From a virus (Duplodnaviria; Heunggongvirae; Uroviricota; Caudoviricetes), in IMG/VR virus record IMGVR_UViG_2671180778_000014, positions 1-35,491 of that record: DNA of 35,491 nucleotides; one strand, written 5' to 3'. The notes below the pieces were generated by a model that saw nothing but the letters and a program-made list of their open reading frames with translations, was not told the origin of the DNA and made no database searches. Positions 962 to 29,906 of this stretch are shown here, one piece after another. Within the stretch, counting starts at the first letter, position 1. Every line of letters starts with the position of its first letter. The position numbers and the translations under genes were made by a program.

Positions 962-1001
962 GCCCCTATCGTTATAATACGCGGTAGGGGCGTTTTTGTT
1001 T
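962..1001 (+). terminator. rho-independent terminator
   Basis: GCCCCTATCG / CGGTAGGGGC stem followed by GTTTTTGTTT. Confidence 0.5.
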
Positions 1002-1010
1002 GGAAATGGT

Positions 1011-2690
1011 ATGAAAACTAAACTGTATTCGTATATTCGCTTCTCGTCTATGCGTCAGAATGATGGTTCGAGTTATGAACGACAAATCAGGATGGCGAGA
1101 GAGGTTGCGGCAAAGTATGACCTTGAACTGGTAAATGATTATCAGGATCTGGGTGTATCTGCGTTTAAGGGTGCTAACTCTAAAACAGGGGCGCTATCTC
1201 GTTTCCTTGATGCAATTGGTAGATCCGTTCCTGTTGGTAGCTGGCTATTCATCGAGAACTTGGACCGTTTATCCCGTGCCGATATTGTCAGTGCGCAGGA
1301 GTTATTCCTTTCAATAATCCGTAGGGGGATAACCATTGTTACTGGCATGGATAACAAGATCTACTCGCTGGATACTGTTACCGCTAACCCGATGGACCTG
1401 ATGTTCTCCATCCTTTTATTCATCCGTGGTAATGAGGAAAGCCAGACTAAGCGCAATCGTACTAACTCAAGCGCATTGATTAAGATTAAAGCTCATCAAG
1501 AAAATCCACAAAATCCGGCAGTGGCTATCGAGGAAGTTGGAAAGAATATGTGGTGGACTGATACCACTTCCGGTTATGTGTGTCCCGATCCGGTCTTCTT
1601 CCCTATTGTTCAGGAGGTTGTGGAATTACGCAGGAATGGACGGTCTACCGCCGAGATACTGGATCACCTTAACGCGACATATACACCACCACCAGCCGCA
1701 AGTCACAAGAGGCATTCAAACTGGTCACGAGCAATGATTGAAAGGTTGTTCCATACCCGCGCTTTGATTGGTATCAAGGAAATCTCTGTAGATGGCGTTA
1801 AGTATGAGTTAAAGGATTATTACCCTCGTGTGCTAGATGACGCTGAGTTTTATCACCTTAAGAAAAGCATTGGTGTTAGAGCATGTAACTATGGAGACAA
1901 AGAAGAAGCTAAACCGATCCCCCTGCTTAGTGGTGTTAATCTGCTGAAATGTGAACATTGCGGTTCCGCTATGGTTAAGGTGAAAGGAACTAACAAACGG
2001 CCTAACCAATATCGTTATTCATGCGATGCAATGCGCTCTAGTCGTATTGCATGTGTGCATACAAACTGGAGTTTTCGAGGTGATCAATTAGAGAAAGCTG
2101 TATTGCAATTGCTGGCTGATAAAATCTGGATTGCTGAGGATAAGGCTAATCCTGTTCCGGCTTTGAAAGTACAGATTGATGAGATATCACGCAAGATTGA
2201 TAACCTGATTACCCTTTCTGCTATGACTGGAGCAACGAAGGAGTTAGCCGACCAGATTACTACCCTCAATAGCGAGCGTGAAACACTCTATAATCAGATT
2301 AAGATGGCAGAAGAGGAAATGTATTCTGTGGACTCTCAAGGCTGGGAGAAGCTCGCAGAATTTGATTTAGAAGATGTTTATAACGAGGATCGCATTAAGG
2401 TCCGGTTTAAGATTAAGCAAGCTCTAAAACGGATCGGGTGTAGCAGGATTGACAAATACAAAAACTTGTTTGTATTGGAATACATTGATGGCAAGACCCA
2501 GAGAGTTGTAATAGAAAATTCAAGAGGACCGAGGAAAGGACAAATCTTTGTCGATTTGAAAACTATCAATGATAGGCAGATTCTGGAGAGTAACGGGCTT
2601 GTTCTGCATCCATGTTTAGACATGCTGACAGATAAAGACTGGAAGCCAGAAGAGGAAATACCAGGTCCATTACAGGAATTTGGAATTTAA
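1011..2690 (+). CDS. large serine recombinase (integrase/resolvase family)
   Basis: N-terminal YSYIRFSSMRQ matches the Y-x-R-x-S-x-x-Q catalytic serine motif; about 560 aa with Cys cluster (CEHCGS...YSCDAM...IAC) and coiled-coil region typical of large serine recombinases. ATG at 1011 preferred over the track's TTG at 996, which lies inside the upstream terminator. Confidence 0.75.
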   Translation: MKTKLYSYIRFSSMRQNDGSSYERQIRMAREVAAKYDLELVNDYQDLGVSAFKGANSKTGALSRFLDAIGRSVPVGSWLFIENLDRLSRADIVSAQELFLSIIRRGITIVTGMDNKIYSLDTVTANPMDLMFSILLFIRGNEESQTKRNRTNSSALIKIKAHQENPQNPAVAIEEVGKNMWWTDTTSGYVCPDPVFFPIVQEVVELRRNGRSTAEILDHLNATYTPPPAASHKRHSNWSRAMIERLFHTRALIGIKEISVDGVKYELKDYYPRVLDDAEFYHLKKSIGVRACNYGDKEEAKPIPLLSGVNLLKCEHCGSAMVKVKGTNKRPNQYRYSCDAMRSSRIACVHTNWSFRGDQLEKAVLQLLADKIWIAEDKANPVPALKVQIDEISRKIDNLITLSAMTGATKELADQITTLNSERETLYNQIKMAEEEMYSVDSQGWEKLAEFDLEDVYNEDRIKVRFKIKQALKRIGCSRIDKYKNLFVLEYIDGKTQRVVIENSRGPRKGQIFVDLKTINDRQILESNGLVLHPCLDMLTDKDWKPEEEIPGPLQEFGI

Positions 2691-6165: not shown

Positions 6166-9100
6166 TTAAGAAACAGTAATACCCGTAGTGGCTTTTTTAG
6201 TTACCATTACAGTTAAATCACTGATCCATGTGCTAGGCGTCCAGTTGTTGATTGCGCTTGATTGCACTTCAAAGGTCAAGGTCACAGCACCTTTACCCGC
6301 TGGCATATCAATAACACCTGAGTAAAGACCAGTATTACCGCCATACGCCCTATTATACAACTCTGACCCATTCTTACGAACAATCAGGCGACATGTGTCG
6401 TAATAGGTATTATTGTTCGACCCTTCACGCGCTCGCAATCCACCAAAACTAATTGCCGGAATAACGATTTGACGATCGAACTTGTGATCATCTTCAACGC
6501 GAACAGTGACCGTACCCTGTGGATAGCCAGCATAACCATTATCAACGTTAACATCACGGTGCGGGAACTTACGACCAATCACCTTAACGAAATCACCCTT
6601 AACCTGAGTAGCTTCAAGCATACCCTTAATAACACAGCTAGAGTTAATCGTGACGTTGTTCAGAGTACCAGAATCAGCCGTGATATTACCTTTAACGGTA
6701 GCGTTCATGAACGTAGCATTACCGTTCTTGTTGATATGCCATCCGGTCGATCCGTTCCAGTTGGAAGACTGGATATAGTTACCGATTTTAGCGTTATCAA
6801 TTGCGCCATTTACAATCTTGGCGTTAGTGATTGCCCCGTCCTGAATCTTCGCGCTGTTAATTGCAGCATTGCCGATCTTAGCGGTAGTAATTGCCGCATC
6901 ATTAATCTGGGCTGTACCAATTGCAGCATTACGAATCATCGCATTATCGAGATAAACCTTGTTACCTTCGATACCAAACGGGCAAACATCGGTCCCATTC
7001 TGCGGAGCTACAGCAATTTTATCAGCCGTAAAGATGATTTTAGTCGGTTGTGCCGGATCGTTGGTTGCGCTCATGTGAATACCAGCCACACGACCATCTG
7101 CATTAACTGCCAGATTGTATTTGCTGTTAATGGTTCCTTTCAAAGCATCGATTTTTACATCTGCTTCCTGATTCACACCAGCAATCTTGCCATCCATTTC
7201 TACCCGAACTTGATCAATCTTACTTGCGCTTGCTGCCTCACTGGTTGCAATTGCTTGTTTCAGGGTTGTAGCGGAGGCGCTAACTTCTTTGGTGATATCG
7301 CCTTTCAGTTCAGCTTTAACCTGATCAATCTTAGTTGAACTTGCCTTATCACCAGAAGCAATCAGACTCTTTAAGGTATCGGCTGAGGCTTGAACAGTTT
7401 TACCCGTCTCGGTAGTGATTTGCTTATGCATTGCATCAATTTTAGCATCGGCATTAGCGCCAGCTTGCTTAATAGCATCCGCGATAGTTTCATCTAAGCG
7501 ATCTTGTAAACCGATCAGGTCTTCCAGTGCTTCTTTGTCCTGATCGTCCCAACTAATCGTAGACTTCATTTGCATGAAATACGGTTCAGACCAAACAGCA
7601 TCATCCATACCGAAAATATCGTAGTGAGCACCACGGATATAATAATCACCGTCAGCAATATCAAAGGAAGTATGGCTAACACTATTCGTGCTTACTGCCC
7701 TTGCATCTGAGAAAGTGTTATCGGTTGCATACTGGATGATTGACCCTGCATAGTCATGTTCTACGTCATCCGCCCAGCTAACAAACGCAGTATTAAAGCC
7801 ACCACGCGCACTAAAACCTTTCATTGGCTTATGCTGTGGGTTGATAGCCACTAAACGCGCTGGGGCGCTCTCTGAGTTGTTATAGCCCTTAGCCGATACT
7901 TCTACCGTAAGTTGTCGCGAAAGGCCGTTAAACTGGTTCATATCAAGTGTATAAGTCCATGATTCAGGATCGCGGGTACGGTACTGAATAGACTTACCAG
8001 CCTTGTTAGTCACCTTGATAATGTATGCTTCAAACAGGTCACTAAACTTGTTAGTTTCACCGTTGATCATCACATCTAATTGTTGCTGATTTTCCCATTC
8101 GATAATCAGATCATTACCTTCGAAAGTTCCTGGCGTGCTACCCTGATTTTTGATTCGAATAACCGGAGTCGGTAATTCATAGGTAACAGTAGGATTCTGG
8201 TTAATCAGTTCTACCCAATCAGATCTCGCGATGATACCGAAAGCACAAACTCGGTAATCATAAGAACGATCTTTTGCCAGTGCACTGACACTGAAAATTT
8301 GCTGTGAAGTCTGTCCCAGCTTAATCCAGTTAGGCGATCCACTAACACGGTAATCAATCTGGAAGCCGTAGCGGTTAAAATCTTCCGGCGCATCCCATGT
8401 TAAAGTAACGTTCTTACCATAGATTGTTTCACCAGTTGCCTTAATTCTGAAATTAGTAGGCTTCTGTACTGTCATTGAATCCGGTAAACCACTTGGTCGG
8501 TTATCTGGGTTAGCCGCATAGTTCAGGTCAGTATAAACCTGAGAATTATATTCTGTGGCGGTGATCGTCATCATCCCAGCAATACCAGAATCAATCGAGC
8601 GGTCAATTGCAGTAATACGCCAAAGTGAATTATTCAGTTTTAATTCATCATAGGTTACGCTGATAACATCCCACACCTCGGCAGTGAATGCGTCAGTAGT
8701 CATAAAGCTGATAACCTGAGTGATACGAGATTTATTTCGTTCAATGCTCGCAAGTTTATCAATCTGGGCTTTAGACTTAACAAAACGATATTCGATATCC
8801 TTAGCGATAATTCGACCATCTTGACGAATAGTAGCATCGTTTTCAGCATCAGCCGGATAACGTAGCATTTGCTCTGAATAGTCAATAGATGGTTCTTGAT
8901 ACATCGCGTTAATGGTATTGAAATAACCGTTAGTGCCACCTGTTTTCAGTGATACCTTACCCATCATGATATTGTCTTCATTGAAGGTATGCTTAACAAT
9001 ATCAGGAGCATCCAGTTTCAGGGTAATTCTTCCGAAGGATTCGAACATCACCCCGCCGAAAGTCTGCATAAGGCTAGTCAAGTTCTCTTTAAAGCTGGCG

Positions 9101-16044: not shown

Positions 16045-19000
16045 TTATTTAGTTGCTTTGAGTTCGGCAATCTCTTTAGTCAATGCTTCAATCTTAGCTT
16101 GATATTTGGCGTCCATTTCCTGAATAGCTTTAATAATCAAGGCATTAACAGCAGAGTTAGAAATAGTCTTAATTGCTTCTGGATTTTCTGGATCTTCGGT
16201 GGATTGAATACCTACTGCTTCCGGCAATACTTCTTCCAGATCCTGAGCAATAATACCTACTTCGCGTTTAATCACTGTGTCATCGGAAAGAGATTTAACT
16301 TTATCGTAGGTGTAGACTTTCAGGGAGTTTACTTTCTCTAATGCGCCGTCCTGTAATTCTTCCTTGTTAATCTTCAAACGGGAGTCAGAGCGAATGTAAA
16401 CATCGTTAAAGCTACCGTTACGACCTGCGGTAAAGTCACCAGCAGCGTTAAAGTCAAAGTTAGTATCATGAACATGGAGACGAACAAGAGCGTTACCGAT
16501 AGTACCGCTAGGAACGTGCACACCCATTGCTGCAATGTGATATTGACCCCAATGAGTAGCTTTCCAGATGTTATGTGCTGAATCTTTTGATTGGGGGCAA
16601 TCAACTTGCAAACCGGAAGCACGGTCACGCCAACTAGACCAGCTACCACCAGAAACGTTACCACGAATCAAACCTTTATCAGACCCGCCGACGCTACCAG
16701 ATTCAAGATGAATCATCTTATCCGCAAGTTTCCACGTCTGGGCTTGTTTCTGACCACGGAAGCGAATAACACCAGCATCATCGGAATACATCAAGCCTAG
16801 TTCCAATCCGTTAGGGTCTCTAAACCAGATGTGCTTATTGCCAGTGCGCTTAAATTCAATATCAGCACCGTTCAGTGTGATATTACCGCCAGCATGGATC
16901 GCTTTAGGTCTTAGTGTACCGTTAACAGCAAACTCAATTAATTCAGTGCCAGGACCACCCGCACGTTGAGTATACCAATGCCAACCGCTTTCGTCCGCAC
17001 ATTCGAATACTTGTTGACGACCCTCATTACCAGGTCCAGCACCCCATGCACGAATATTAAAGCTAGATGCAGATGTATTTTTACCCCATGTGATCTTACC
17101 TTCTGCGGTTAAGTCACCACGGAAGTGAGCAAGCAAACCGCCAGATCCGTTGCGTTCAGTGGTAAAGTGAGTTCCGCTAGTGTCCTGGAATTGCAAAACG
17201 TTATATCGGTTAGCGTTACTATTCCCCCAATGGTTAATCGTGAAAGAATCCATTGACTGATTACCACCCGCAGAGAAAGTAAGCAATCCTTTTTCTAAGA
17301 ATACGTTGTTGCTAAAACGGGCAGCACGGCTATCTCTTTCAAGAATTAATGCACCTTCGTTACCATCACCACCTAAAGTAACTTTACCAGTATTCATATC
17401 GTAAATGAACGGTCTGTTTCCATTCCAGCCACCCAATTTATCATCTTCGGCAGTAGAAAGAAGATAAACTTTAACGCCGTCATTACGCCAGAATGCACCA
17501 TATTTACCGTAGATCATGCGGTAAGCGTCGCTATTCATTGAGATGAATTGAGCGTTAGTATAAACTCGTTTTGTGTTACCGGTTGCAAGTTCGATCTGTC
17601 CGTCGATGTGGTGACGAATAGAAGTACCACCTACATCACTATACCATTCAAAAACGTTAGTATCAGCATTACCATAACCGAACCATCCTTGACGAGTAAT
17701 ATTTCCGGTGCGGTTATCCTGAAAAGCGATATGATTAGACTGACCAGCCGGACGACGCAAGGTAATAACATTACTACCGCCATTTAACAGCATTCGACCA
17801 GAAAGAATATTACCTTTATGAGTCCCAGCAATAGAGCTACTAGATTCAACGGTTAGAATCTCCTGAGCATCTGTACTACCCGTGGCGAGTCGATAAGTAG
17901 AACCCTGAACCGTCTCATGCCAGATCATTTCATTATAGTTACTACGGAATTTACGAATATATTTCCGTCCAGTACCTCTATCATTGCTTAGATGAACAAT
18001 ATCATAACTATTTTGTGTGTTATCGTCAAAACTCAACACACCACGTTTATTTTCTGTGTTAAAAAGAGTTACGTTGCGACCACCGATAACACCAACGGAA
18101 GGTTTAATTAACGTGGCTTCCGGCGTATCATAAACCGTCAAACTTACATAAACAGATTTCCCATATTCGACAATAACGTTATCGGTATAACGCTGATATT
18201 TCACGTAGATATCATAGTTATCACCGGAAGTATTGACAGCAAATACCTCAAAATCTTTGTTTGTATTTCTACGGTATGCAATTACGTTAAGACCTTTAGG
18301 TCTATCGTTACCACTACGCAGAAGAATTTCTACTACGTCAACCTGATCATATGCCGTAACGTTGTAACCATTACCACCATGAATACGGAAAAACACACTA
18401 CGCCCGTTTTGTGGAATTGTTGCGGTTGCCAATTTGAAATATGCAGATACGTTTTCGCTAGAATTGGGAACAGACATAACGACGTTTTTAACAAACATCT
18501 TATCAACTTCGGCTTTGGTGTATGCACCAATCTCGCCAGGAGTCGGCTTATCACCTTCGTGATACATCTTATAGCTAAAGTTCTTCTGTCCTTCTCTATC
18601 AAAACCATAGGTTTCAACACGAGATCCACCAGACGCATAACGGAAAGTAAATCCGCGACCGTGCGCTTTACCGGCAGAATGAGGAACATTAAGAGTTAGA
18701 TCTAAAAGACCATCTTGTCCATTAGTTCGGAAAGCACCAAAGTAGTTAAGATCTCGTGATGTCTGGTCTTCCAGATAGTTAGCTGTCTTGCTTAACAGAT
18801 ACCCACCATGCTTAGTATTGGTATTCTTCTTGATGTAAAGAGCATCATTGCTACCTTCAATACCATCAATTCGTTTGTTAGCGGCTGCAATTGCGGCATC
18901 AGTAGAAGATTTATTCTGGTCTACCTTGTTGTTAATTGCGGTATGGTTGCTATTAACAGTGCCAGTAAGATTGGTAATCTTAGTATCCGCGTCTTTCTTA

Positions 19001-19668
19001 TTGTCGGAAACAGTCTTTTCGATCGCTGTCTTGTTAGCTGCAACCGTGCTAGTTAAGCTAGAAATTTTGTTATCTGCATCGGTTTTATTTGCAGTAACAG
19101 TTTTAGTTAAGTTGCTAACGTTGGTGTTAGTGGTATTAACCTTGTTGTTAATCGCGGTGTTATTGTCAGTGACCGTTTTCGTTAAAGCTGCATGTTTGCT
19201 ATCTGCATCAGATTTGTTTGCGGCAACGGTTCTTTCAATTGCGGTCTTATTCGCAGATACGGTCCCCGTAAGGTTATTGATCTTAGTGTCGGCATCGGTT
19301 TTATTTTCCGTAACTGTCTGGGTTAAGTTACTAACAGTGGTGTTGGTAGCATCAATGCGCTTATTGGTTGCGGTGTCTTTAGTGGTAATAGTCTGATTCA
19401 GTTCAGCTTTAGCACTAGCCAGATTATTAGCGGCCTCTTGTTTGTTGGAAGCAATAACACGGTCAGTGCTAGTTTTATTCTGGTCTACTTTCGTGTTAAG
19501 TTCAGCGTGTTTTTCTGGAGAAACAGAGATTTGAACTACTGCGTTATTTTTATCTTTGGTATACAGAACGTGATCAGCAAGGTTAATAGCCAATTCACCC
19601 TGTGATAATTGTTCCGGCGTTGGTTTTTTACCAGCCGTTTGTGTGCGTTTAAATTGGATTGATCGCAT
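16045..19668 (-). CDS. L-shaped / side tail fibre with C-terminal intramolecular chaperone (peptidase S74-like) domain
   Basis: 1207 aa; N-terminal repetitive TxNKTDADxKIxxLTxTVxANKTAIE segments; C-terminal SDSRLKINKEEL ... GIIAQDLEEVLPEAV matches the auto-cleaving chaperone domain of endosialidases and T5-type L-shaped fibres; KPTPGEIGAYTKAEVD fibre repeat. Confidence 0.8.
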   Translation of the reverse strand: MRSIQFKRTQTAGKKPTPEQLSQGELAINLADHVLYTKDKNNAVVQISVSPEKHAELNTKVDQNKTSTDRVIASNKQEAANNLASAKAELNQTITTKDTATNKRIDATNTTVSNLTQTVTENKTDADTKINNLTGTVSANKTAIERTVAANKSDADSKHAALTKTVTDNNTAINNKVNTTNTNVSNLTKTVTANKTDADNKISSLTSTVAANKTAIEKTVSDNKKDADTKITNLTGTVNSNHTAINNKVDQNKSSTDAAIAAANKRIDGIEGSNDALYIKKNTNTKHGGYLLSKTANYLEDQTSRDLNYFGAFRTNGQDGLLDLTLNVPHSAGKAHGRGFTFRYASGGSRVETYGFDREGQKNFSYKMYHEGDKPTPGEIGAYTKAEVDKMFVKNVVMSVPNSSENVSAYFKLATATIPQNGRSVFFRIHGGNGYNVTAYDQVDVVEILLRSGNDRPKGLNVIAYRRNTNKDFEVFAVNTSGDNYDIYVKYQRYTDNVIVEYGKSVYVSLTVYDTPEATLIKPSVGVIGGRNVTLFNTENKRGVLSFDDNTQNSYDIVHLSNDRGTGRKYIRKFRSNYNEMIWHETVQGSTYRLATGSTDAQEILTVESSSSIAGTHKGNILSGRMLLNGGSNVITLRRPAGQSNHIAFQDNRTGNITRQGWFGYGNADTNVFEWYSDVGGTSIRHHIDGQIELATGNTKRVYTNAQFISMNSDAYRMIYGKYGAFWRNDGVKVYLLSTAEDDKLGGWNGNRPFIYDMNTGKVTLGGDGNEGALILERDSRAARFSNNVFLEKGLLTFSAGGNQSMDSFTINHWGNSNANRYNVLQFQDTSGTHFTTERNGSGGLLAHFRGDLTAEGKITWGKNTSASSFNIRAWGAGPGNEGRQQVFECADESGWHWYTQRAGGPGTELIEFAVNGTLRPKAIHAGGNITLNGADIEFKRTGNKHIWFRDPNGLELGLMYSDDAGVIRFRGQKQAQTWKLADKMIHLESGSVGGSDKGLIRGNVSGGSWSSWRDRASGLQVDCPQSKDSAHNIWKATHWGQYHIAAMGVHVPSGTIGNALVRLHVHDTNFDFNAAGDFTAGRNGSFNDVYIRSDSRLKINKEELQDGALEKVNSLKVYTYDKVKSLSDDTVIKREVGIIAQDLEEVLPEAVGIQSTEDPENPEAIKTISNSAVNALIIKAIQEMDAKYQAKIEALTKEIAELKATK

Positions 19669-19744
19669 CTAGAATCACCTCACTATAAAACAGGAATAAG
19701 GGAGGCGTTAACCTCCCCGCGTCATGTTTTATTTAGGAAGTGAA

Positions 19745-20578
19745 TCAATACTCCCCGAAATCGATCCGGTCAGTCTTAGCTACTGCGCCAATTTCGCTAG
19801 GTGTCGGTTTCTCATTGGTGGAATATACCTTGATCCATTCAGAGCGACCGTTTTCCTGAATATTTCGGACGCGTAAACGTGGTGCGCCGGAAGTATTACA
19901 GGTTAATTGCCATGCGCCATGCTCATTGGCTTGAAGGTGAATTAATGCTGTGTCGGTTGAATATGGATTACCGCTAGCAGTTCCCTTGTAAGTTACGAAA
20001 CGGTTTCCGGCTAATGCCTCGCTATCAATTGGACCCGTGAATGGATTTACACCAGCACCCAAACCAAAATCACCCTGACGTAAGATCCGGCCTTCGGTAG
20101 CAATACCCCTTGCCAAAATCCCGCCATCTGGTTCAAGTTTAAATTCCAGTGTTACAGCTTTGTTATCTGCGCCACGGGTTTTATGTGATGTGACGTAAGC
20201 ATCGAATATACAAAAGTACCCTGTGTTAGCAGCACTATAGCCAGAGTTCACAACATAGAACATACGGAAGCGTAAAGGTGTTTTATCCTCTACCGCTTTC
20301 ATCAACATTGCTTGATGTTCATCGTCAAGAACACGGTTTAATGTGAGTGTTGTCGGTTCCAGTCTACGATAACCAGCAAGTTTCCCCGTAGCGTCCTGAT
20401 CGTACTCTTCCAGAGTTTCTATCTCTGTGGATTCGGTTAGCGTAGGGAATGCTGCGATGTTCTCCATAGAACTAAAGCTAGGATCGAAAAAGTCGACCTG
20501 ATTGTCTATCTGGTTAGAGATCGACACTTCAACATGTGATCCAGTGAAAATATCTAAGTTATCTTGTGTAATATTCAT
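19745..20578 (-). CDS. tail/neck structural protein with C-terminal fibre-type repeat
   Basis: 277 aa; C-terminal NEKPTPSEIGAVAKTD shares the KPTPxEIGA motif with the adjacent fibre; RBS TAAGGGGT. Confidence 0.4.
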   Translation of the reverse strand: MNITQDNLDIFTGSHVEVSISNQIDNQVDFFDPSFSSMENIAAFPTLTESTEIETLEEYDQDATGKLAGYRRLEPTTLTLNRVLDDEHQAMLMKAVEDKTPLRFRMFYVVNSGYSAANTGYFCIFDAYVTSHKTRGADNKAVTLEFKLEPDGGILARGIATEGRILRQGDFGLGAGVNPFTGPIDSEALAGNRFVTYKGTASGNPYSTDTALIHLQANEHGAWQLTCNTSGAPRLRVRNIQENGRSEWIKVYSTNEKPTPSEIGAVAKTDRIDFGEY

Positions 20579-20587
20579 TATTACCCC

Positions 20588-20989
20588 TTAAAAACGCGCT
20601 AGATAAGAAAATTTAAGGCTAAGTGTCCCAACGATACCCCCATCACTAGAATCATCGTCATAATCGGTATTAGAGGCTACTGGAGTGATATCTGAAATAG
20701 AGAAGCCCAAATCTTTAAAACGTGGGTTATCCGGCTGAATCTGGATTATCTGGCAAATACCCTCATGAATTTTGGTTTCATGATTCTGAGAATACAACTG
20801 CATTTCGATAACGCATTCAGCTTGCATTGCATTACCACCACGGACCCTACAGTAAGTCTCATTCATTCCGGTAATCCAACAAACCACATCATCACTAAAG
20901 CCTTGCTGAGTTTGTTCTACGTTTAAAGCCAGACCTAAATCTTGTTCGATAATATCCTGCAAGGCGCGTTTGATTTTCAGTCTAGGCAT
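20588..20989 (-). CDS. head-tail joining / neck protein (hypothetical)
   Basis: ATG at 20989 immediately after the upstream TAATAA stop; position between capsid and tail genes. Confidence 0.4.
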   Translation of the reverse strand: MPRLKIKRALQDIIEQDLGLALNVEQTQQGFSDDVVCWITGMNETYCRVRGGNAMQAECVIEMQLYSQNHETKIHEGICQIIQIQPDNPRFKDLGFSISDITPVASNTDYDDDSSDGGIVGTLSLKFSYLARF

Positions 20990-20993
20990 ATTA

Positions 20994-21284
20994 TTAACGG
21001 TAGCGAGCATGTGTACCCCCTGCACGAGCAATAAAGCAATCAGAAGTATTATCACCATTGCGCTTAACGTATTGAACTTTGAAGCGTTCACCGTCTACAA
21101 TGACAACATCACCCTGATTTAAGTCTCCCTCACGACAGAATAGAAATTCTGATTCTGTAATTACCCCTTGTTCGTCGGTAGTAGTAAATTCATGGTAAGC
21201 ACGAATTGATTTACCACCTTCCACCGAAAATACAGGAGCACTTTTAAACATTCGATTTAATTGTGATTCTGATAATTTGAACAT
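20994..21284 (-). CDS. head completion / connector protein (hypothetical)
   Basis: 96-aa ORF directly downstream of the capsid gene terminator. Confidence 0.4.
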   Translation of the reverse strand: MFKLSESQLNRMFKSAPVFSVEGGKSIRAYHEFTTTDEQGVITESEFLFCREGDLNQGDVVIVDGERFKVQYVKRNGDNTSDCFIARAGGTHARYR

Positions 21285-21314: not shown

Positions 21315-21341
21315 AAAAAAGCCCCACCGTTAGGCAGGGCT
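21315..21341 (-). terminator. rho-independent terminator (conserved family)
   Basis: minus-strand AGCCCTGCC-taac-GGTGGGGCT followed by TTTTTTG; near-identical to the 15362 copy. Confidence 0.6.
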
Positions 21342-21349
21342 AATTATTA

Positions 21350-21475
21350 TTCTTTAGTTTTACGCTGTTTTTTAGCTGTGGCTTTCGCCTTAACCGTCTG
21401 GGATTCTTCTTCCGGTTCAGGAATCAGATTTTCTTCCCCCAAATCGGGGGAAGGTTCAGATGGTTCTACAGGAGT
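21350..21475 (-). other. in-frame post-TGA extension of the capsid gene (putative readthrough segment)
   Basis: 42 sense codons after the TGA at 21476-21478, no ATG; translates TPVEPSEPSPDLGEENLIPEPEEESQTVKAKATAKKQRKTKE; stop TAA at 21347-21349. Confidence 0.45.
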
Positions 21476-23479
21476 TCATTCAGCGGAGATGTGAAGAACT
21501 TTCAGCGCTTCCGGCTGGGTTACAACGTAATCCAGATCTACCCAGATACGCGGAACGATAGCAGACTGTGCGCGGTAGGTAGTGTCATCAATGTCAAGTT
21601 CCAGACCACCCCATTCACCGATGGTAATAGCGTCGAACGATCCCAGAACGATGTGGTCTACCGGAATAACACCAGAAGTAACTACGTCGTAACCAGCCAG
21701 TTTACCGTTTTCGATGATATAACCGGAAACACCGTTATCTTTCAGGGTAGATTCCAGTTCAGCAGCAGTTGCACCGCTCATTGCAAACTTGATCGCCTGA
21801 GCAGGAACGCCAGCGTCGGTCAGTTTAGCAATTTCTTTCAGGAAGTCTTTATAAGAGAAAGCAGCTTTCTTCTCTACGCGACCAGCATCTACCAGTTGTT
21901 TAATCACACCAGCCGGACCACGAGCATTTTCTTTGTCGGACAGAATCAGTTGTTCCAGTTTGATGCGAACAGCCTGGTTAATGTGATCAGTGATCAGGGT
22001 AGCGATGCCGGGTACGGTTTTGAGGCTAGCTCTGCTGATCGGATTCCCACCAGCAAACGTCTTAGGAGCCATTTTCACGTTTGCAAATTCAGCTTTACCT
22101 TCCGGCGCAGCACCGTTTTCATCAACGAAGCCGAAAGATTCAACGCTGGAAGCGGTCATTTTAGGAATAGCGGTCGGCGAAGTCAGACCAGACAGGACTT
22201 TCACACCAAGACGACCCAGAACGGATTCCGGCAACAGCATCGCTACATAGGAATCATTCAGCAGTTTTTCGTCGGTTACAGCGGTCAGAGTAGCTTTGGT
22301 GTTACCATCAGCAGCAGCACGCATAGCAGCAGTCGGAACGAATACAGAGCCACCGCGAGCAGCACGACCACGCTGCATAGTTGCAGTAGCAGCCATTGCA
22401 GAAAACTCGGCTTCGTGAGCACCCAGAGCTTCACCATCTACCAGAGAGCGAATTACGTTGTTCAGGTCAAAAGTTTTTTCCATTTTAGAGTCCTTAATTT
22501 GTTGTTCGTTATTACGTTGAGCATTGGTAATGTTATTTAGTGCCTTAGTGCGGAATGCTTCCGGCGTCATGTCTTTAACTGCCAATGCGCGTTTTAATTC
22601 TTCGTCGTCAATATTTAGTTCCCGCGCGATCTCGCGAATTTCTAATTCGTCTTCTTCGGAACGTTCAGCCACTTCTTCGATTTTTTCTTCTTCAATCGGA
22701 GCGGCTTCACGTTCTTCTTTTACTTCTTCTGTTTCCCGAACAGTTGAACTATCATCATCAACACTTTCAGGATGTTCAGCGTCTTTTCCGTCTTCGAGAT
22801 TTTCATTTTCTTCATTCTCTTCAACTTGGCGCTCTTGAGTTTCTTCTACTTCCGATTCTTTATTTTCTTCTACCGGAGTTTCTTCAACCTGAGCGGCTTC
22901 TTGTTCTTTGATTTCTTCGATTTGTTCTTTAGTCATATCGCGTTTAGCCTCCAAATTAACTGTGATAGTATTTAGAGAGCGATTTAAACCGACCGTATCG
23001 TCAGCAGGAACGGTAACGAAACTTAATTCGTATGGTGCCCACTTAGTAACAATCAATTGTCCTTTGGTGTAGTCGATGTGATATTCTTTAATGTCATAAC
23101 CGACAGAAATTTTTTCCATCGTACCTTCAATGACTTTATTGCGAATATCATTAGCCAAAGTGCCATGCTTAGAGAATTTAACCAGAGCACGACCTACGTT
23201 ATCCGCATCGATTCGAGCGTTACAAACGACACCAATATGATTATCGAAATTATGATTGAACAGCAACGGAGCGTTATTATTCAGACGAGACAGATCAACC
23301 GCTTCCGGTGTATGTACCAGAATTTCATCTAGTACCACCATCTCTTGATTTTGCTCATCCCAGAATTGGCGCTGATACGGCTGTTCACTGGAGAAAGCAA
23401 TTTCAAATTCGTATTGATCGTTATGCCCTTCGTTAATAACTCCACCGTAACCGTTAAGATCGCGGCGAAATTTAAGCAT
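21476..23479 (-). CDS. prohead protease - scaffold - major capsid protein fusion (HK97-fold)
   Basis: N-terminal PLLFNHNFDNHIGVV is prohead protease-like; central highly acidic coiled-coil region (scaffold/delta-like); C-terminal ~300 aa resemble an HK97-fold capsid protein; candidate internal RBS plus ATG at 22483. Confidence 0.8.
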   Translation of the reverse strand: MLKFRRDLNGYGGVINEGHNDQYEFEIAFSSEQPYQRQFWDEQNQEMVVLDEILVHTPEAVDLSRLNNNAPLLFNHNFDNHIGVVCNARIDADNVGRALVKFSKHGTLANDIRNKVIEGTMEKISVGYDIKEYHIDYTKGQLIVTKWAPYELSFVTVPADDTVGLNRSLNTITVNLEAKRDMTKEQIEEIKEQEAAQVEETPVEENKESEVEETQERQVEENEENENLEDGKDAEHPESVDDDSSTVRETEEVKEEREAAPIEEEKIEEVAERSEEDELEIREIARELNIDDEELKRALAVKDMTPEAFRTKALNNITNAQRNNEQQIKDSKMEKTFDLNNVIRSLVDGEALGAHEAEFSAMAATATMQRGRAARGGSVFVPTAAMRAAADGNTKATLTAVTDEKLLNDSYVAMLLPESVLGRLGVKVLSGLTSPTAIPKMTASSVESFGFVDENGAAPEGKAEFANVKMAPKTFAGGNPISRASLKTVPGIATLITDHINQAVRIKLEQLILSDKENARGPAGVIKQLVDAGRVEKKAAFSYKDFLKEIAKLTDAGVPAQAIKFAMSGATAAELESTLKDNGVSGYIIENGKLAGYDVVTSGVIPVDHIVLGSFDAITIGEWGGLELDIDDTTYRAQSAIVPRIWVDLDYVVTQPEALKVLHISAE

Positions 23480-28558: not shown

Positions 28559-29029
28559 TCATACTTTGATTCGGACAAACTTGCATCCTAACTCATTTTC
28601 AATTCTTCGTTGACGGATCTCGTCTTGCTCTTTCTTGTACTGGTGTTCTGGTTCATCAATTTCATAAGCTATATTATTAACCGGATCATAACCATCAATT
28701 CGATAGTTTAACACCCGACACTGGCGAATCAGGTTGATACCTAAAACTTGTTCTATAGTGTTAAGAGCAATCTTTTCGGCAGTAGATAAACCAAAACGTA
28801 AGCCGTTATAGCGTTTATACATCGCATCTGCTAATTGTCCACACAGCATATAGTGACACTTTTTTCGATTTTGGGAATCTACATACACAGATTCAACAAA
28901 AGCAATTCCTGTATTTTTAGAAACTAACCTAACGTCACGCAAAACATCTTGATGTCTCTTTCCAAATTCTTTAGCCAAATCCAGAGAGCTAATCTGTTCT
29001 TTTTCTAATTGTAATGCAGCATTTCCCAT
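28559..29029 (-). CDS. Rha-type N-terminal domain protein with small C-terminal nuclease-like domain
   Basis: LAKEFGKRHQDVLRDVRLV matches the Rha regulatory domain signature; C-terminal YDPVNNIAYEIDEPEH ... KFVRIK has acidic residues compatible with an endonuclease-like fold (tentative). Confidence 0.5.
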   Translation of the reverse strand: MGNAALQLEKEQISSLDLAKEFGKRHQDVLRDVRLVSKNTGIAFVESVYVDSQNRKKCHYMLCGQLADAMYKRYNGLRFGLSTAEKIALNTIEQVLGINLIRQCRVLNYRIDGYDPVNNIAYEIDEPEHQYKKEQDEIRQRRIENELGCKFVRIKV

Positions 29030-29072: not shown

Positions 29073-29906
29073 TTACAGTCCGAAGACTTCCAGAGAGCCA
29101 GCATTCTGACGAATCAGCAAAGCAGTGTTATTAATGATTGCTCGTGAGTTATTCGGCTGTGGCAATTTCAAAGTTGCGGCCTTTTCTTCTTCAAGCAATC
29201 CGAGTTTTACGAGATGCGGGATAGCATCAGCAGTGAACTCGATCTGACCGTGTGCCGACATACGAGCGAACATATAGCCAGGAGGAAGCAGATCATAGCC
29301 TTTAGGCTTACCAGAAGCATCCAGACGACGCTCAAGAACACCAGCAGCACATAAACCTTTCAGAATCATTTGTACCTTCGTAGAGCCTCGTTTTTCGCCT
29401 AATAAGCGGCTAAGACTGTGTGCATCAATAGCTTTACGGATATGAAGATCAACTAATTGTTCTTTTTCTTGAATCAGTTGTTCGTTTGCGGCTTCTAATT
29501 CCATTGCCTCACGAATCCAATCGAGCTTAGTCATGTTTGCGTATGGGTTGACTTGCTGAGAACGCAGTTTTTCATTTTCTTCTTTCAGTCGTTTCCATTC
29601 CTGAATAACAACCATTCGACGCTTAACATCGTAACCAGTGACAAGAGTCAGAGTCATTTCTTCGTCTAGTTGATATTCGTTTTGTTCGCGTCCGTATTGG
29701 TCAAAATAGATGACGCGAAACTTCGCGTGATCTTCATAACCTAGAGCATTCAACATCTTAGTTATATCAACTTTAACTTTGTGGTGTTCTTTTCCGGTAA
29801 ATTCAGCGATCTGACGAGAAGACATGGTCAGTGGTTTGGTGTTATCAACAACCAGAGACACGGAAGCAGTTTTAACAGCAGTATTCATAGTAGTAACAGT
29901 ATTCAT
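29073..29906 (-). CDS. antirepressor-type regulator (Rha N-terminal domain + KilAC-like C-terminal domain)
   Basis: SSRQIAEFTGKEHHKVKVDITKMLNAL ... VIYFDQYGREQNEYQL is Rha-like; C-terminal LSRLLGEKRGSTKVQMILKGLCAAGVLERR ... GYMF is KilAC/Ant-like. Confidence 0.7.
   Translation of the reverse strand: MNTVTTMNTAVKTASVSLVVDNTKPLTMSSRQIAEFTGKEHHKVKVDITKMLNALGYEDHAKFRVIYFDQYGREQNEYQLDEEMTLTLVTGYDVKRRMVVIQEWKRLKEENEKLRSQQVNPYANMTKLDWIREAMELEAANEQLIQEKEQLVDLHIRKAIDAHSLSRLLGEKRGSTKVQMILKGLCAAGVLERRLDASGKPKGYDLLPPGYMFARMSAHGQIEFTADAIPHLVKLGLLEEEKAATLKLPQPNNSRAIINNTALLIRQNAGSLEVFGL

What the first reader, a model, noticed from the sequence alone, without database searches (positions are those of the whole stretch)
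16045..20578. L-shaped fibre with auto-chaperone domain sits between neck and tube genes; neighbouring 277-aa protein shares its fibre repeat
The 1207-aa fibre has repetitive coiled-coil-like N-terminal units and a C-terminal S74-type intramolecular chaperone domain that is normally cleaved off after trimerisation. The upstream 277-aa protein ends with the same KPTPxEIGA fibre-type motif, suggesting it is a second fibre or attachment component. Placement inside the tail gene block before the tube gene is atypical for lambda-like order, and a palindromic hairpin (GGGGGAACTAGTCCCCC, 16019-16035) sits between fibre and tube genes.
Basis: partly seen in the sequence, partly recalled or inferred. 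Interest (0 to 1): 0.4.

Follow-up and report, generated by a model that had tools for sequence, protein, structure and literature searches.

The report
Tail-tube paralogue anchoring a T4-type fibre
A lambda-like E. coli prophage encodes, between its tail-terminator and tail-tube genes, a T4-type distal tail fibre (a gp37-like shaft with a self-cleaving chaperone, plus a gp38-like tip adhesin); its 277-aa neighbour is a copy of the tail-tube protein fused to the end piece of T4 gp36, which looks like an undescribed way of mounting fibres on a non-contractile tail.

Summary
The interpretation needs correcting.

- **The 1207-aa fibre** is not a T5-type L-shaped fibre. It is an orthologue of T-even gp37: 78% aa identity to Krischvirus ECD7 gp37 over aa 290-1204. 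It has the gp37 N-terminal motif, an inserted 238-aa coiled-coil repeat block, and a Peptidase_S74 chaperone behind the S16-type cleavage motif DVYIR^SDSRLKI.
- **Relatives.** In about 110 representative relatives the tube domain heads proteins of up to 1563 aa, many ending in S74. In 80 related loci, all 35 anchors with the gp36-type end are followed by a fibre with the gp37-type start; none of the other 45 are.

Best reading: a tube-paralogue ring that anchors a gp36/gp37/gp38-type fibre. The parts are known; the attachment mode appears to be new. Virion position and copy number are untested.

The parts
20588..21010 (-). Tail terminator protein (140 aa; the mechanical ORF call of 167 aa starts further upstream at a GTG)
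20099..20578 (-). 277-aa anchor protein, N-terminal tail-tube-like domain (aa 1-160)
19748..20086 (-). 277-aa anchor protein, C-terminal gp36-type domain (aa 165-277), ending in the connector tail KPTPSEIGAVAKTDRIDFGEY (aa 257-277, nt 19748-19810)
   Evidence: BLASTP to ECD7 gp36 aa 396-496: 31% identity, E 1e-5, running to both C-termini. A profile of anchor C-domains hits ECD7 gp36 at E 1e-12. ECD7 gp36 ends ...NKPTPADVGAVPLNAVIDFGTF and T4 gp36 ends ...VQDFGYY. The domain is conserved across the family: invariant G169, G172, G174, G191, N192, N204.
19699..19718 (-). Hairpin between the anchor and fibre genes (8-bp stem)
   Evidence: Terminator-like scan; sequence. Function not tested.
19516..19668 (-). 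Fibre aa 1-51: gp37-type N-terminal attachment module (IQFKRT...GELAINLAD)
   Evidence: 49% identical to ECD7 gp37 aa 4-54. The same motif opens T4 gp37. It is present at the start of the fibre that follows every anchor with a gp36-type C-terminus: 35/35 loci.
18802..19515 (-). Fibre aa 52-289: inserted Asn/Thr/Lys-rich coiled-coil-like repeat block, absent from Krischvirus gp37
   Evidence: 72-aa duplication, 48/72 identical, z=18. The gp37 alignment jumps from gp37 aa 54 to aa 71 across this block. The nucleotide match to Krischvirus starts at 18801.
16390..18801 (-). Fibre aa 290-1093: gp37-homologous shaft and tip, ending in the DVYIR docking tip (aa 1089-1093)
   Evidence: 78% aa identity to ECD7 gp37 aa 71-978 (alignment also covers the IMC). 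75-89% nt identity to gp37 of the listed Krischvirus and related phages (38 matching records). Pfam Gp34_trimer at aa 665-756, E 3.8e-22. phrog_1699 long tail fiber distal subunit, E 9e-145.
16048..16389 (-). Fibre aa 1094-1207: intramolecular chaperone (Peptidase_S74), predicted to be released by autocleavage between R1093 and S1094
   Evidence: Pfam PF13884, E 7.9e-14. The motif DVYIR^SDSRLKI matches the cleavage site described for S16 and fPS gp37 (PMC7917993).
16019..16035 (-).
   Evidence: Sequence confirmed. No T-run on the - strand; z -0.27. Position-conserved, sequence-variable hairpins lie upstream of the tube gene in diverged loci.
15515..15988 (-). Major tail tube protein (157 aa)
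   Evidence: phrog_158, E 7e-22. Weak Pfam lambda-like TTP hits, just below the curated cut-offs. Lies directly upstream of the TAC G/T and TMP genes. All tubes form one clade, separate from the anchors.
14840..15346 (-). gp38-type tail-fibre adhesin (168 aa)
   Evidence: Pfam Gp38_N, E 3.7e-15. phrog_1121 tail fiber adhesin, E 5e-34, full length. tblastn hits gp38 genes in 561 phage records. Co-occurs with fibres carrying an NDV[YQE][IV]R^SD tip.

Best explanation
The region encodes a three-protein side fibre. It is built from the T-even 'distal half-fibre' kit and mounted on a siphovirus tail through a copy of the tail-tube protein.

SHOWN by sequence and structure comparison:
- The 277-aa protein is a tail-tube paralogue (aa 1-160) joined to a gp36-type C-terminal domain (aa 165-277).
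- The 1207-aa protein is a gp37 orthologue with the gp37 N-terminal module, an extra coiled-coil block, the gp37 shaft and tip, and a C-terminal S74 chaperone behind a DVYIR^SD cleavage motif.
- The 168-aa protein is a gp38-type adhesin.
- The 140-aa protein upstream is the tail terminator.

INFERRED mechanism:
- The tube-like domains co-assemble with the 157-aa tube protein as a dedicated ring. Six chains would give two trimeric stubs.
- The gp36-type C-terminal domains trimerise and dock the N-terminus of the trimeric gp37-like fibre, as gp36 docks gp37 in T4.
- The fibre folds from its C-terminal chaperone, which then cuts itself off after R1093.
- The exposed DVYIR tip binds the N-terminal domain of the 168-aa adhesin, which contacts the host receptor.
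- The fibre would provide reversible first contact, alongside the lambda-J-like central fibre.

In more distant relatives the same tube domain is fused directly to a whole fibre, so the two-gene form here is the 'jointed' version of one device. Which ring of the tube the anchor occupies (next to the terminator, next to the distal tail protein, or elsewhere) is not resolved.
For: - gp36 homology of the C-domain. A long anchor, P0082, matches gp36 aa 55-488 at E 5e-28.
- gp37 orthology and N-terminal module. T4 gp36 and gp37 carry the same end motifs. The order gp36 then gp37 in the T4 fibre: PMC5537660.
- Fusion ('Rosetta stone') evidence: 112 of the 157 representative proteins examined carry the tube domain at their N-terminus, with lengths up to 1563 aa. 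Six of nine tested long members end in Peptidase_S74.
- Synteny in 80 loci: terminator, tube-domain protein, an optional separate fibre, then tube, TAC and TMP.
- Co-occurrence: 35/35 anchors ending [IVL]D[FLA]G.[FYL] are followed by a fibre starting FKRT..GE[IL]A[IL]N; 0/45 of the others are.
- IMC cleavage motif and gp38 docking. gp38-like genes co-occur with DVYIR-type tips.
- One ancient duplication, with both copies retained in every lineage.
- Intact genes in the same order in related prophages found in 55 of 5426 complete E. coli genomes (38 covering at least 80% of the query), gene order checked in E. coli PI7.
Against: - There are no virion data. Incorporation of the 277-aa protein into the tube, its position and its copy number are inferred only.
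- A hexameric ring has to be reconciled with trimeric fibres.
- The co-occurrence test is not phylogenetically independent, because the 'split' forms cluster together in the tree.
- The C-domain model is only moderately confident (pLDDT about 70-80) and the linker is unmodelled.
- Four loci have DVYIR-type tips without a detected gp38-like gene.
- The gp38-like protein is shorter (168 aa) than S16/T2-type gp38 and gave no PDB sequence match.
Confidence: 0.7

Rival explanations
1. The 277-aa protein is an independent short fibre or whisker. The 1207-aa fibre attaches elsewhere, for example to the tail tip (J, distal tail protein) as lambda Stf does, or to the neck. In that case the shared motifs reflect only common fibre ancestry.
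For: No physical interaction has been tested. The KPTPxEIGA motif is widespread inside many fibres. In DCP80 and other loci the anchor itself carries a fibre segment of 400-700 aa.
Against: The anchor's C-terminus is specifically the gp36-type end and the fibre's N-terminus is the gp37-type start. The two always co-occur: 35/35 against 0/45. In the fused relatives no second attachment protein is needed.
Confidence: 0.15
2. The 277-aa protein is the real major (or a co-major) tail tube protein carrying a surface decoration domain, like lambda gpV with its Ig-like domain or SPP1 gp17.1*. It would decorate the whole tail rather than form one fibre-bearing ring.
Against: A canonical 150-170-aa tube gene sits directly before TAC/TMP in every locus and is more conserved (47% against 32% mean identity). 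In relatives the same domain heads 800-1500-aa fibres with trimerising S74 chaperones, which is hard to fit to ~200 copies per tail. The C-domain is a fibre connector, not an Ig/FN3 fold.
Confidence: 0.07
3. The module is a decaying or non-functional mosaic in a cryptic prophage, and its products are not assembled into particles.
For: Some relatives carry disruptions: a frameshifted terminase in E. coli PI7, an IS insertion in one genome, and split or truncated ORFs in a few loci.
Against: In the window all structural ORFs are intact. The same order and intact genes recur in many E. coli, Salmonella, Shigella, Proteus and Edwardsiella genomes at 50-96% identity. Anchor and tube have co-diverged since an ancient duplication.
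Confidence: 0.05

Closest known systems
T-even long tail fibre distal half (gp36-gp37, with T2/S16-type gp38 adhesin and C-terminal IMC on gp37), especially Krischvirus (RB49, Phi1, ECD7)
   Same: The fibre is 78% identical to ECD7 gp37. It has the same N-terminal IQFKR..GELAINL module and the same DVYIR^SD.RLK cleavage motif with an S74 chaperone. A gp38_N-type adhesin is present. The anchor's C-terminal domain and end motif equal those of gp36.
   Different: There is no gp34, no gp35 and no contractile-tail baseplate. The gp36 part is reduced to its last ~110 residues and fused to a tail-tube domain. A 238-aa coiled-coil block is inserted after the gp37 N-terminal module. The gp38-like gene is separated from the fibre gene by the tube gene. 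The host phage is a temperate lambda-like siphovirus.
T5 L-shaped fibre pb1 with the p132 collar (and DT57C LtfA/LtfB)
   Same: A siphovirus lateral fibre with a C-terminal S74 intramolecular chaperone, attached to the tail tube region through a separate small ring-forming protein.
   Different: There is no detectable sequence match to pb1. From general knowledge, the T5 collar protein p132 has an Ig-like fold and surrounds the tube; the anchor here is a tube-protein paralogue. T5 has no gp36/gp37-type joint and no gp38 adhesin.
Lambda side tail fibres Stf/Tfa
   Same: A lambdoid siphovirus with extra lateral fibres that are evolutionarily related to T-even gp37/gp38-type proteins; a classic case of horizontal exchange.
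   Different: Stf/Tfa are encoded downstream of J and attach at the tail tip. They use a Tfa chaperone (the T4 gp38 type) rather than an IMC plus a T2-type adhesin. No tube paralogue is involved.
Tail tube proteins with C-terminal additions (lambda gpV Ig-like domain; SPP1 gp17.1*) and specialised tube paralogues (T4 gp54, gp48, gp3; the Dit N-domain)
   Same: The same tube fold. There is precedent both for tube subunits that display extra domains and for paralogues that occupy single defined rings.
   Different: Known additions are small Ig/FN3 decoration domains present along the whole tail. Known single-ring paralogues carry no fibre. Here the addition is a fibre connector or, in relatives, an entire receptor-binding fibre with an IMC.

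Membership tests
Peptidase_S74 intramolecular-chaperone fibres/spikes | C-terminal S74 (IMC) domain detected above the curated threshold | tested here: met
   PF13884 at aa 1094-1152, 52.1 bits against a cut-off of 22
Peptidase_S74 intramolecular-chaperone fibres/spikes | Conserved cleavage-site motif (Ser-Asp-x-Arg-x-Lys) at the start of the IMC | tested here: met
   DVYIR^SDSRLKI at aa 1089-1100; identical in type to the S16/fPS site (PMC7917993)
Peptidase_S74 intramolecular-chaperone fibres/spikes | Autoproteolytic release of the chaperone after trimerisation | not testable with these tools
   Needs virion or recombinant protein mass analysis
T-even gp37 (long tail fibre distal subunit) | Full-length sequence homology to gp37 | tested here: met
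   78% identity over aa 290-1204 and 49% over aa 1-51 to ECD7 gp37; phrog_1699, E 9e-145
T-even gp37 (long tail fibre distal subunit) | Partner protein carrying a gp36-type C-terminus encoded next to it | tested here: met
   The 277-aa protein's C-domain matches ECD7 gp36 aa 396-496. Co-occurrence 35/35
T-even gp37 (long tail fibre distal subunit) | Part of a gp34-gp35-gp36-gp37 fibre on a contractile-tail baseplate | tested here: not met
   The window encodes a lambda-type non-contractile tail: tube, TAC G/T, TMP, J. No gp34- or gp35-like ORF is seen in the ORF map
T2/S16-type gp38 adhesin | N-terminal gp37-attachment domain (Gp38_N) | tested here: met
   PF21721, E 3.7e-15, aa 4-42
T2/S16-type gp38 adhesin | Polyglycine-rich receptor-binding domain with hypervariable loops | tested here: inconclusive
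   Full-length match to phrog_1121 'tail fiber adhesin'. However, the protein is only 168 aa, has no PDB sequence match, and no structure was modelled
T5 pb1-type L-shaped fibre | Sequence similarity to pb1 outside the IMC | tested here: not met
   The PDB sequence search returns only T4 gp34 and Mu S. The best phage DNA and protein matches are gp37
T5 pb1-type L-shaped fibre | Collar protein of the p132 type as the attachment site | not tested
   No p132 comparison was run. The neighbouring candidate anchor has a tube fold instead
Siphovirus tail tube protein (TTP) fold family | Tube-protein fold | tested here: met
Siphovirus tail tube protein (TTP) fold family | Sequence homology to the cognate tube protein | tested here: met
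   30% identity, E 9e-17, over the full length
Siphovirus tail tube protein (TTP) fold family | Assembles into hexameric rings around the tape measure protein | not testable with these tools
   Needs cryo-EM or multimer modelling
Lambda Stf/Tfa side tail fibres | Genes downstream of J, with a Tfa-type assembly chaperone | tested here: not met
   The fibre genes lie between the terminator and tube genes. The accessory protein is a Gp38_N adhesin. The ORFs downstream of J that were scanned gave no Tfa hit

The most novel reading that the evidence does not exclude
A paralogue of the tail-tube protein forms a dedicated fibre-bearing ring inside a non-contractile tail. This would be a distinct, previously unrecognised class of fibre attachment, present in a whole lineage of Enterobacterales prophages. 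In some members it is a single tube-domain-to-receptor-binding-tip polypeptide. In others it is a jointed fibre that reuses the T4 gp36/gp37 joint, so that temperate siphoviruses and virulent T4-like phages can swap host-range modules directly. The 78% aa identity to Krischvirus gp37 suggests a recent exchange. A further possibility from the same locus is that capsid and tube proteins both receive the same basic tail by programmed UGA readthrough.
Probability: 0.55. Interest if true: 0.7.

Novelty: new variant of a known kind. Interest (0 to 1): 0.55.

Why it matters
How lateral fibres are fixed to siphovirus tails is known for only a few models: the T5 collar and the lambda tail tip. A tube-protein paralogue that carries the fibre would be a third solution. 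It is simple and makes clear predictions for cryo-EM, namely one odd ring with two or more fibres.

It also shows that the complete T-even distal-fibre kit is portable onto a lambda-like tail: the gp36 end, gp37, the IMC, and the gp38-type adhesin. It further shows that a temperate E. coli prophage shares a near-identical gp37 with virulent Krischvirus phages. This bears on host-range evolution, on predicting receptors of prophages present in about 1% of complete E. coli genomes, and on engineering: well-studied gp37/gp38 specificity modules could be moved onto siphovirus or tailocin-like chassis through a small 277-aa adaptor.

Tried and rejected
- Tandem Repeats Finder on the fibre DNA found nothing. 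The repeats exist only at the protein level.
- Pfam gave no hit for the 277-aa protein.
- The profile-based homologue search with A1 added only eight new proteins.
A narrower alignment, A3, gave six Enterobacterales loci.
- PMC10721106 turned out to concern lambda, not R4C.
- The FRphi (TldR) Enterobacter prophage paper describes a different fibre locus, a shufflon upstream of fliC_P-tldR.
- The PhiNP RBP-family paper concerns T4-type gp37 tips with Tfa.
- Four full-text searches found no description of a tube-paralogue fibre anchor. The library is incomplete, so this is absence of evidence only.
- The gp38-like protein gave no PDB sequence hit.
- The idea that the 277-aa protein is itself the tail terminator was rejected, because a separate terminator gene exists.

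Full report
**1. What the window is**

The window is a temperate, lambda-like siphovirus prophage.
- It carries a serine recombinase (996-2690), a gpA-type large terminase, a lambda-family portal and a prohead-protease/major-capsid fusion (21476-23479).
- It also carries a lambda-type tail: tube, TAC G/T, an 810-aa tape measure, a Dit-like 186-aa protein, and a 1258-aa J-like protein with the lambda J C-terminal receptor-binding domain.
- Related prophages (88-93% nt identity among the listed hits) occur in 55 of 5426 complete E. coli genomes, 38 of them covering at least 80% of the query. The same gene order was confirmed in E. coli PI7, where these genes are annotated as hypothetical.
- The capsid backbone is distantly related to Cronusvirus R4C/RcCronus, phiHAP-1 and VP882 (28-30% identity).
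- R4C has no fibre genes between its neck and tube genes.

**2. Checking the observation**

- Both ORFs are at the stated coordinates on the - strand.
- The 1207-aa protein has Peptidase_S74 at aa 1094-1152 and a Gp34_trimer domain at aa 665-756.
- Its N-terminal third contains a 72-aa duplication (48/72 identical, z=18) made of ~18-aa Asn/Thr/Lys-rich units. No DNA tandem repeat is detectable.
- KPTPGEIGA (fibre aa 374-382) and KPTPSEIGA (aa 257-265 of the 277-aa protein) are present.
- The 17-nt palindrome at 16019-16035 is present. It is a modest 6-bp stem without a T-run on the coding strand, and the region folds no better than shuffles.
- Across diverged relatives, a GC-rich hairpin of different sequence sits at the same place, just upstream of the tube gene. 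The element is therefore probably functional (mRNA processing, stability or attenuation), but this was not tested.

**3. The fibre is a T-even gp37, not a T5-type L-shaped fibre**

- Megablast shows that only window 16114-18801 matches known phages. The match is 75-89% nt identity to gene 37 of Krischvirus and related T4-like phages.
- At the protein level, aa 290-1204 are 78% identical to ECD7 gp37 aa 71-978. The first 51 residues (IQFKRTQTAGKKPTPEQLSQGELAINLAD...) are 49% identical to gp37 aa 4-54.
- The coiled-coil block (aa 52-289) is therefore an insertion between the gp37 N-terminal module and the gp37 shaft.
- T4 gp37 starts with the same module, MATLKQIQFKRS...GELAINLKD.
- No PDB-sequence match to T5 pb1 was found.

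**4. Chaperone cleavage and the missed adhesin**

- The sequence DVYIR^SDSRLKI (aa 1089-1100) is the cleavage motif described for the gp37 homologues of the T4-like fPS phages (DVYIR^SDGRLKI), which aligns with the phage S16 site DLNVS^SDRRIKK. There the last ~113 residues (the IMC) are auto-cleaved, and the DVYIR strands form the docking tip for the tryptophans of the gp38 N-terminal domain (PMC7917993).
- Two genes downstream, after the tube gene, lies a 168-aa protein with Pfam Gp38_N (E 3.7e-15) and a full-length match to phrog_1121 'tail fiber adhesin'. tblastn hits gp38 genes in 561 phage records.
- Across related loci, a gp38-like gene accompanies fibres with NDV[YQE][IV]R^SD tips in 14 loci. 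Loci with other tips lack one. Four loci are exceptions: they have the tip but no detected adhesin.
- In some lineages the adhesin gene directly follows the fibre gene. In the window lineage it lies behind the tube gene and its terminator.

**5. The 277-aa protein is a tube paralogue fused to the gp36 end**

- Its first ~160 residues align over their full length with the phage's own 157-aa tube protein (30% identity, E 9e-17).
- ECD7 gp36 ends ...YQLYHEGNKPTPADVGAVPLNAVIDFGTF and T4 gp36 ends ...VQDFGYY. The 277-aa protein ends ...KVYSTNEKPTPSEIGAVAKTDRIDFGEY.
- BLASTP aligns its aa 180-277 with gp36 aa 396-496 up to both C-termini (E 1e-5).
- A profile of anchor C-domains hits ECD7 gp36 at E 1e-12. 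A longer relative, P0082, matches gp36 aa 55-488 at E 5e-28.
- In T4 the gp36 trimer sits next to gp37 in the distal half-fibre (PMC5537660).

**6. Family evidence**

- An exhaustive HMMER search of 1.84 billion representatives found 154 relatives.
- Of the 157 representative proteins examined (P0072-P0228), 112 carry the tube-like domain at their own N-terminus. Most of these are 450-1563 aa long.
- Six of nine tested long members end in Peptidase_S74. Single polypeptides therefore run from a tube domain to a trimeric-fibre chaperone.
- In 80 IMG/VR loci the order is conserved: portal, protease-MCP, ~100-aa protein, ~135-155-aa protein, tube-domain protein, (optional separate fibre, with or without an adhesin), tube, TAC G/T, TMP, Dit, J.
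- There are two architectures. 'Fused' is one 700-1217-aa protein followed by the tube gene. 'Split' is an anchor of 277-583 aa followed by a separate fibre of 560-1300 aa.
- All 35 anchors ending in [IVL]D[FLA]G.[FYL] are followed by a fibre that begins with the FKRT..GE[IL]A[IL]N module. None of the other 45 are.
- A neighbour-joining tree puts all tubes in one clade and the anchors outside it, with parallel topologies. Own-pair identity is 21-29%, mean anchor-anchor identity 32% and mean tube-tube identity 47%. This indicates one ancient duplication with both copies retained.
- Hosts are Enterobacterales: E. coli, Shigella, Salmonella, Proteus, Edwardsiella, Providencia, Enterobacter, Klebsiella, Citrobacter, Serratia, Pluralibacter, Phytobacter.

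**7. The neighbouring 140-aa protein**

- It had no sequence-level identification.
- The anchor is therefore an extra tube paralogue encoded between the terminator and the tube, not the terminator itself.

**8. Mechanism (inferred)**

- The tube-like domains co-assemble with the tube protein as a special ring.
- Their gp36-type C-domains trimerise, so a hexamer would give two stubs.
- Each stub docks a trimeric gp37-like fibre through the gp36/gp37-type joint.
- The IMC folds the fibre and then leaves, and the gp38-like adhesin caps the DVYIR tip.
- Which ring is occupied, and how many fibres result, cannot be decided from sequence, because both ring faces of the tube fold are retained.
- Rivals are an independent whisker, a decorated major tube protein, and a dead module. 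They are less consistent with the synteny, the fusion proteins and the end-motif co-occurrence.

**9. Novelty**

- Exchange of T-even fibre modules with temperate phages is classical knowledge. S74 chaperones and gp38 adhesins are well described.
- What I could not find described is a tail-tube paralogue serving as the fibre anchor, together with a gp36-gp37 joint transplanted onto a siphovirus tube (four full-text searches).
- I rate it a new variant of a known kind, of moderate-to-good interest to phage structural biologists. No experiment has yet been done.

**10. Seen in passing**

- The MCP and tube genes both end in TGA. Each is followed in frame by a 38-42-codon extension: an acidic, proline-rich linker followed by V(T/K)AKATAK(K/R)..R..K.
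- Each extension ends just before a near-identical terminator.
- Among 8 and 9 distinct variants, all indels inside the extensions are multiples of three, whereas indels in the terminator loops are 1-2 nt.
- This pattern suggests programmed UGA readthrough that adds the same basic tail to a fraction of capsid and tube subunits.

Noticed in passing
window 21350-21478 and 15401-15517 (- strand): The MCP and tube genes both stop at TGA. Each is followed IN FRAME by a 38-42-codon open extension: an acidic, Pro-rich linker, then a conserved V(T/K)AKATAK(K/R)..R..K basic tail (some variants have an AT-hook-like KKVGRPPKAK). In 8 tube and 9 MCP variants from L004-L019, all indels inside the extension are multiples of 3 and the TGA plus open frame is always kept. 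The other genes checked in the module end in TAA, except the 277-aa anchor gene, which ends in TGA with only a 3-codon open frame after it. This suggests programmed UGA readthrough giving minor extended capsid and tube proteins.
   Followed up: partly
window 21320-21341 and 15366-15390 (- strand): Near-identical intrinsic terminators (AGCCCTGCCT-loop-GGTGGGGCT plus a T-run) follow the MCP and tube extensions. They are part of a duplicated ~130-nt cassette behind the two most abundant structural genes.
   Followed up: partly
window 16019-16035; L018, L021, L023, L026, L027, L030, L035-L037 intergenic region upstream of the tube gene: A GC-rich hairpin directly upstream of the tube gene is conserved in position but not in sequence across diverged lineages. 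This hints at an mRNA processing, stability or attenuation element separating fibre and tube expression.
   Followed up: partly
window 14840-15346; L022, L024, L027, L036: The gp38-like adhesin gene lies behind the tube gene and its terminator in the window lineage, but directly after the fibre gene in other lineages. L014 and L017-L019 have DVYIR-type fibre tips but no detected gp38-like gene; L014 and L017 have three ~100-aa ORFs instead.
   Followed up: partly
L001 (PQ671644.1, Escherichia phage DCP80) 1-21560: A 141-kb record classified as Gaprivervirus (Straboviridae) begins with a ~20-kb siphovirus-type module of this family: terminase, portal, protease-MCP, a 698-aa tube-domain fibre, a 745-aa fibre, tube, TAC, TMP. 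The record may be a chimeric assembly or a mislabel.
   Followed up: no
window 20578-20592 and 15988-16005 (- strand): The anchor and tube genes share the same ribosome-binding context, TAAGGGGTAAT(N2-4)ATG. This is consistent with their common origin and possibly with similar translation initiation strength.
   Followed up: no
window 6166-9942 (- strand): The J-like central fibre ends in a domain matching the lambda J C-terminal receptor-binding domain (Ig_GpJ_C, E 4e-34). The phage therefore probably uses two receptor-recognition devices.
   Followed up: no
window 996-2690 (+), 28559-29029 and 29073-29906 (-): A large serine recombinase sits near one end of the window, and there are two adjacent Rha-family regulator genes. 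These are typical temperate-phage accessories.
   Followed up: no
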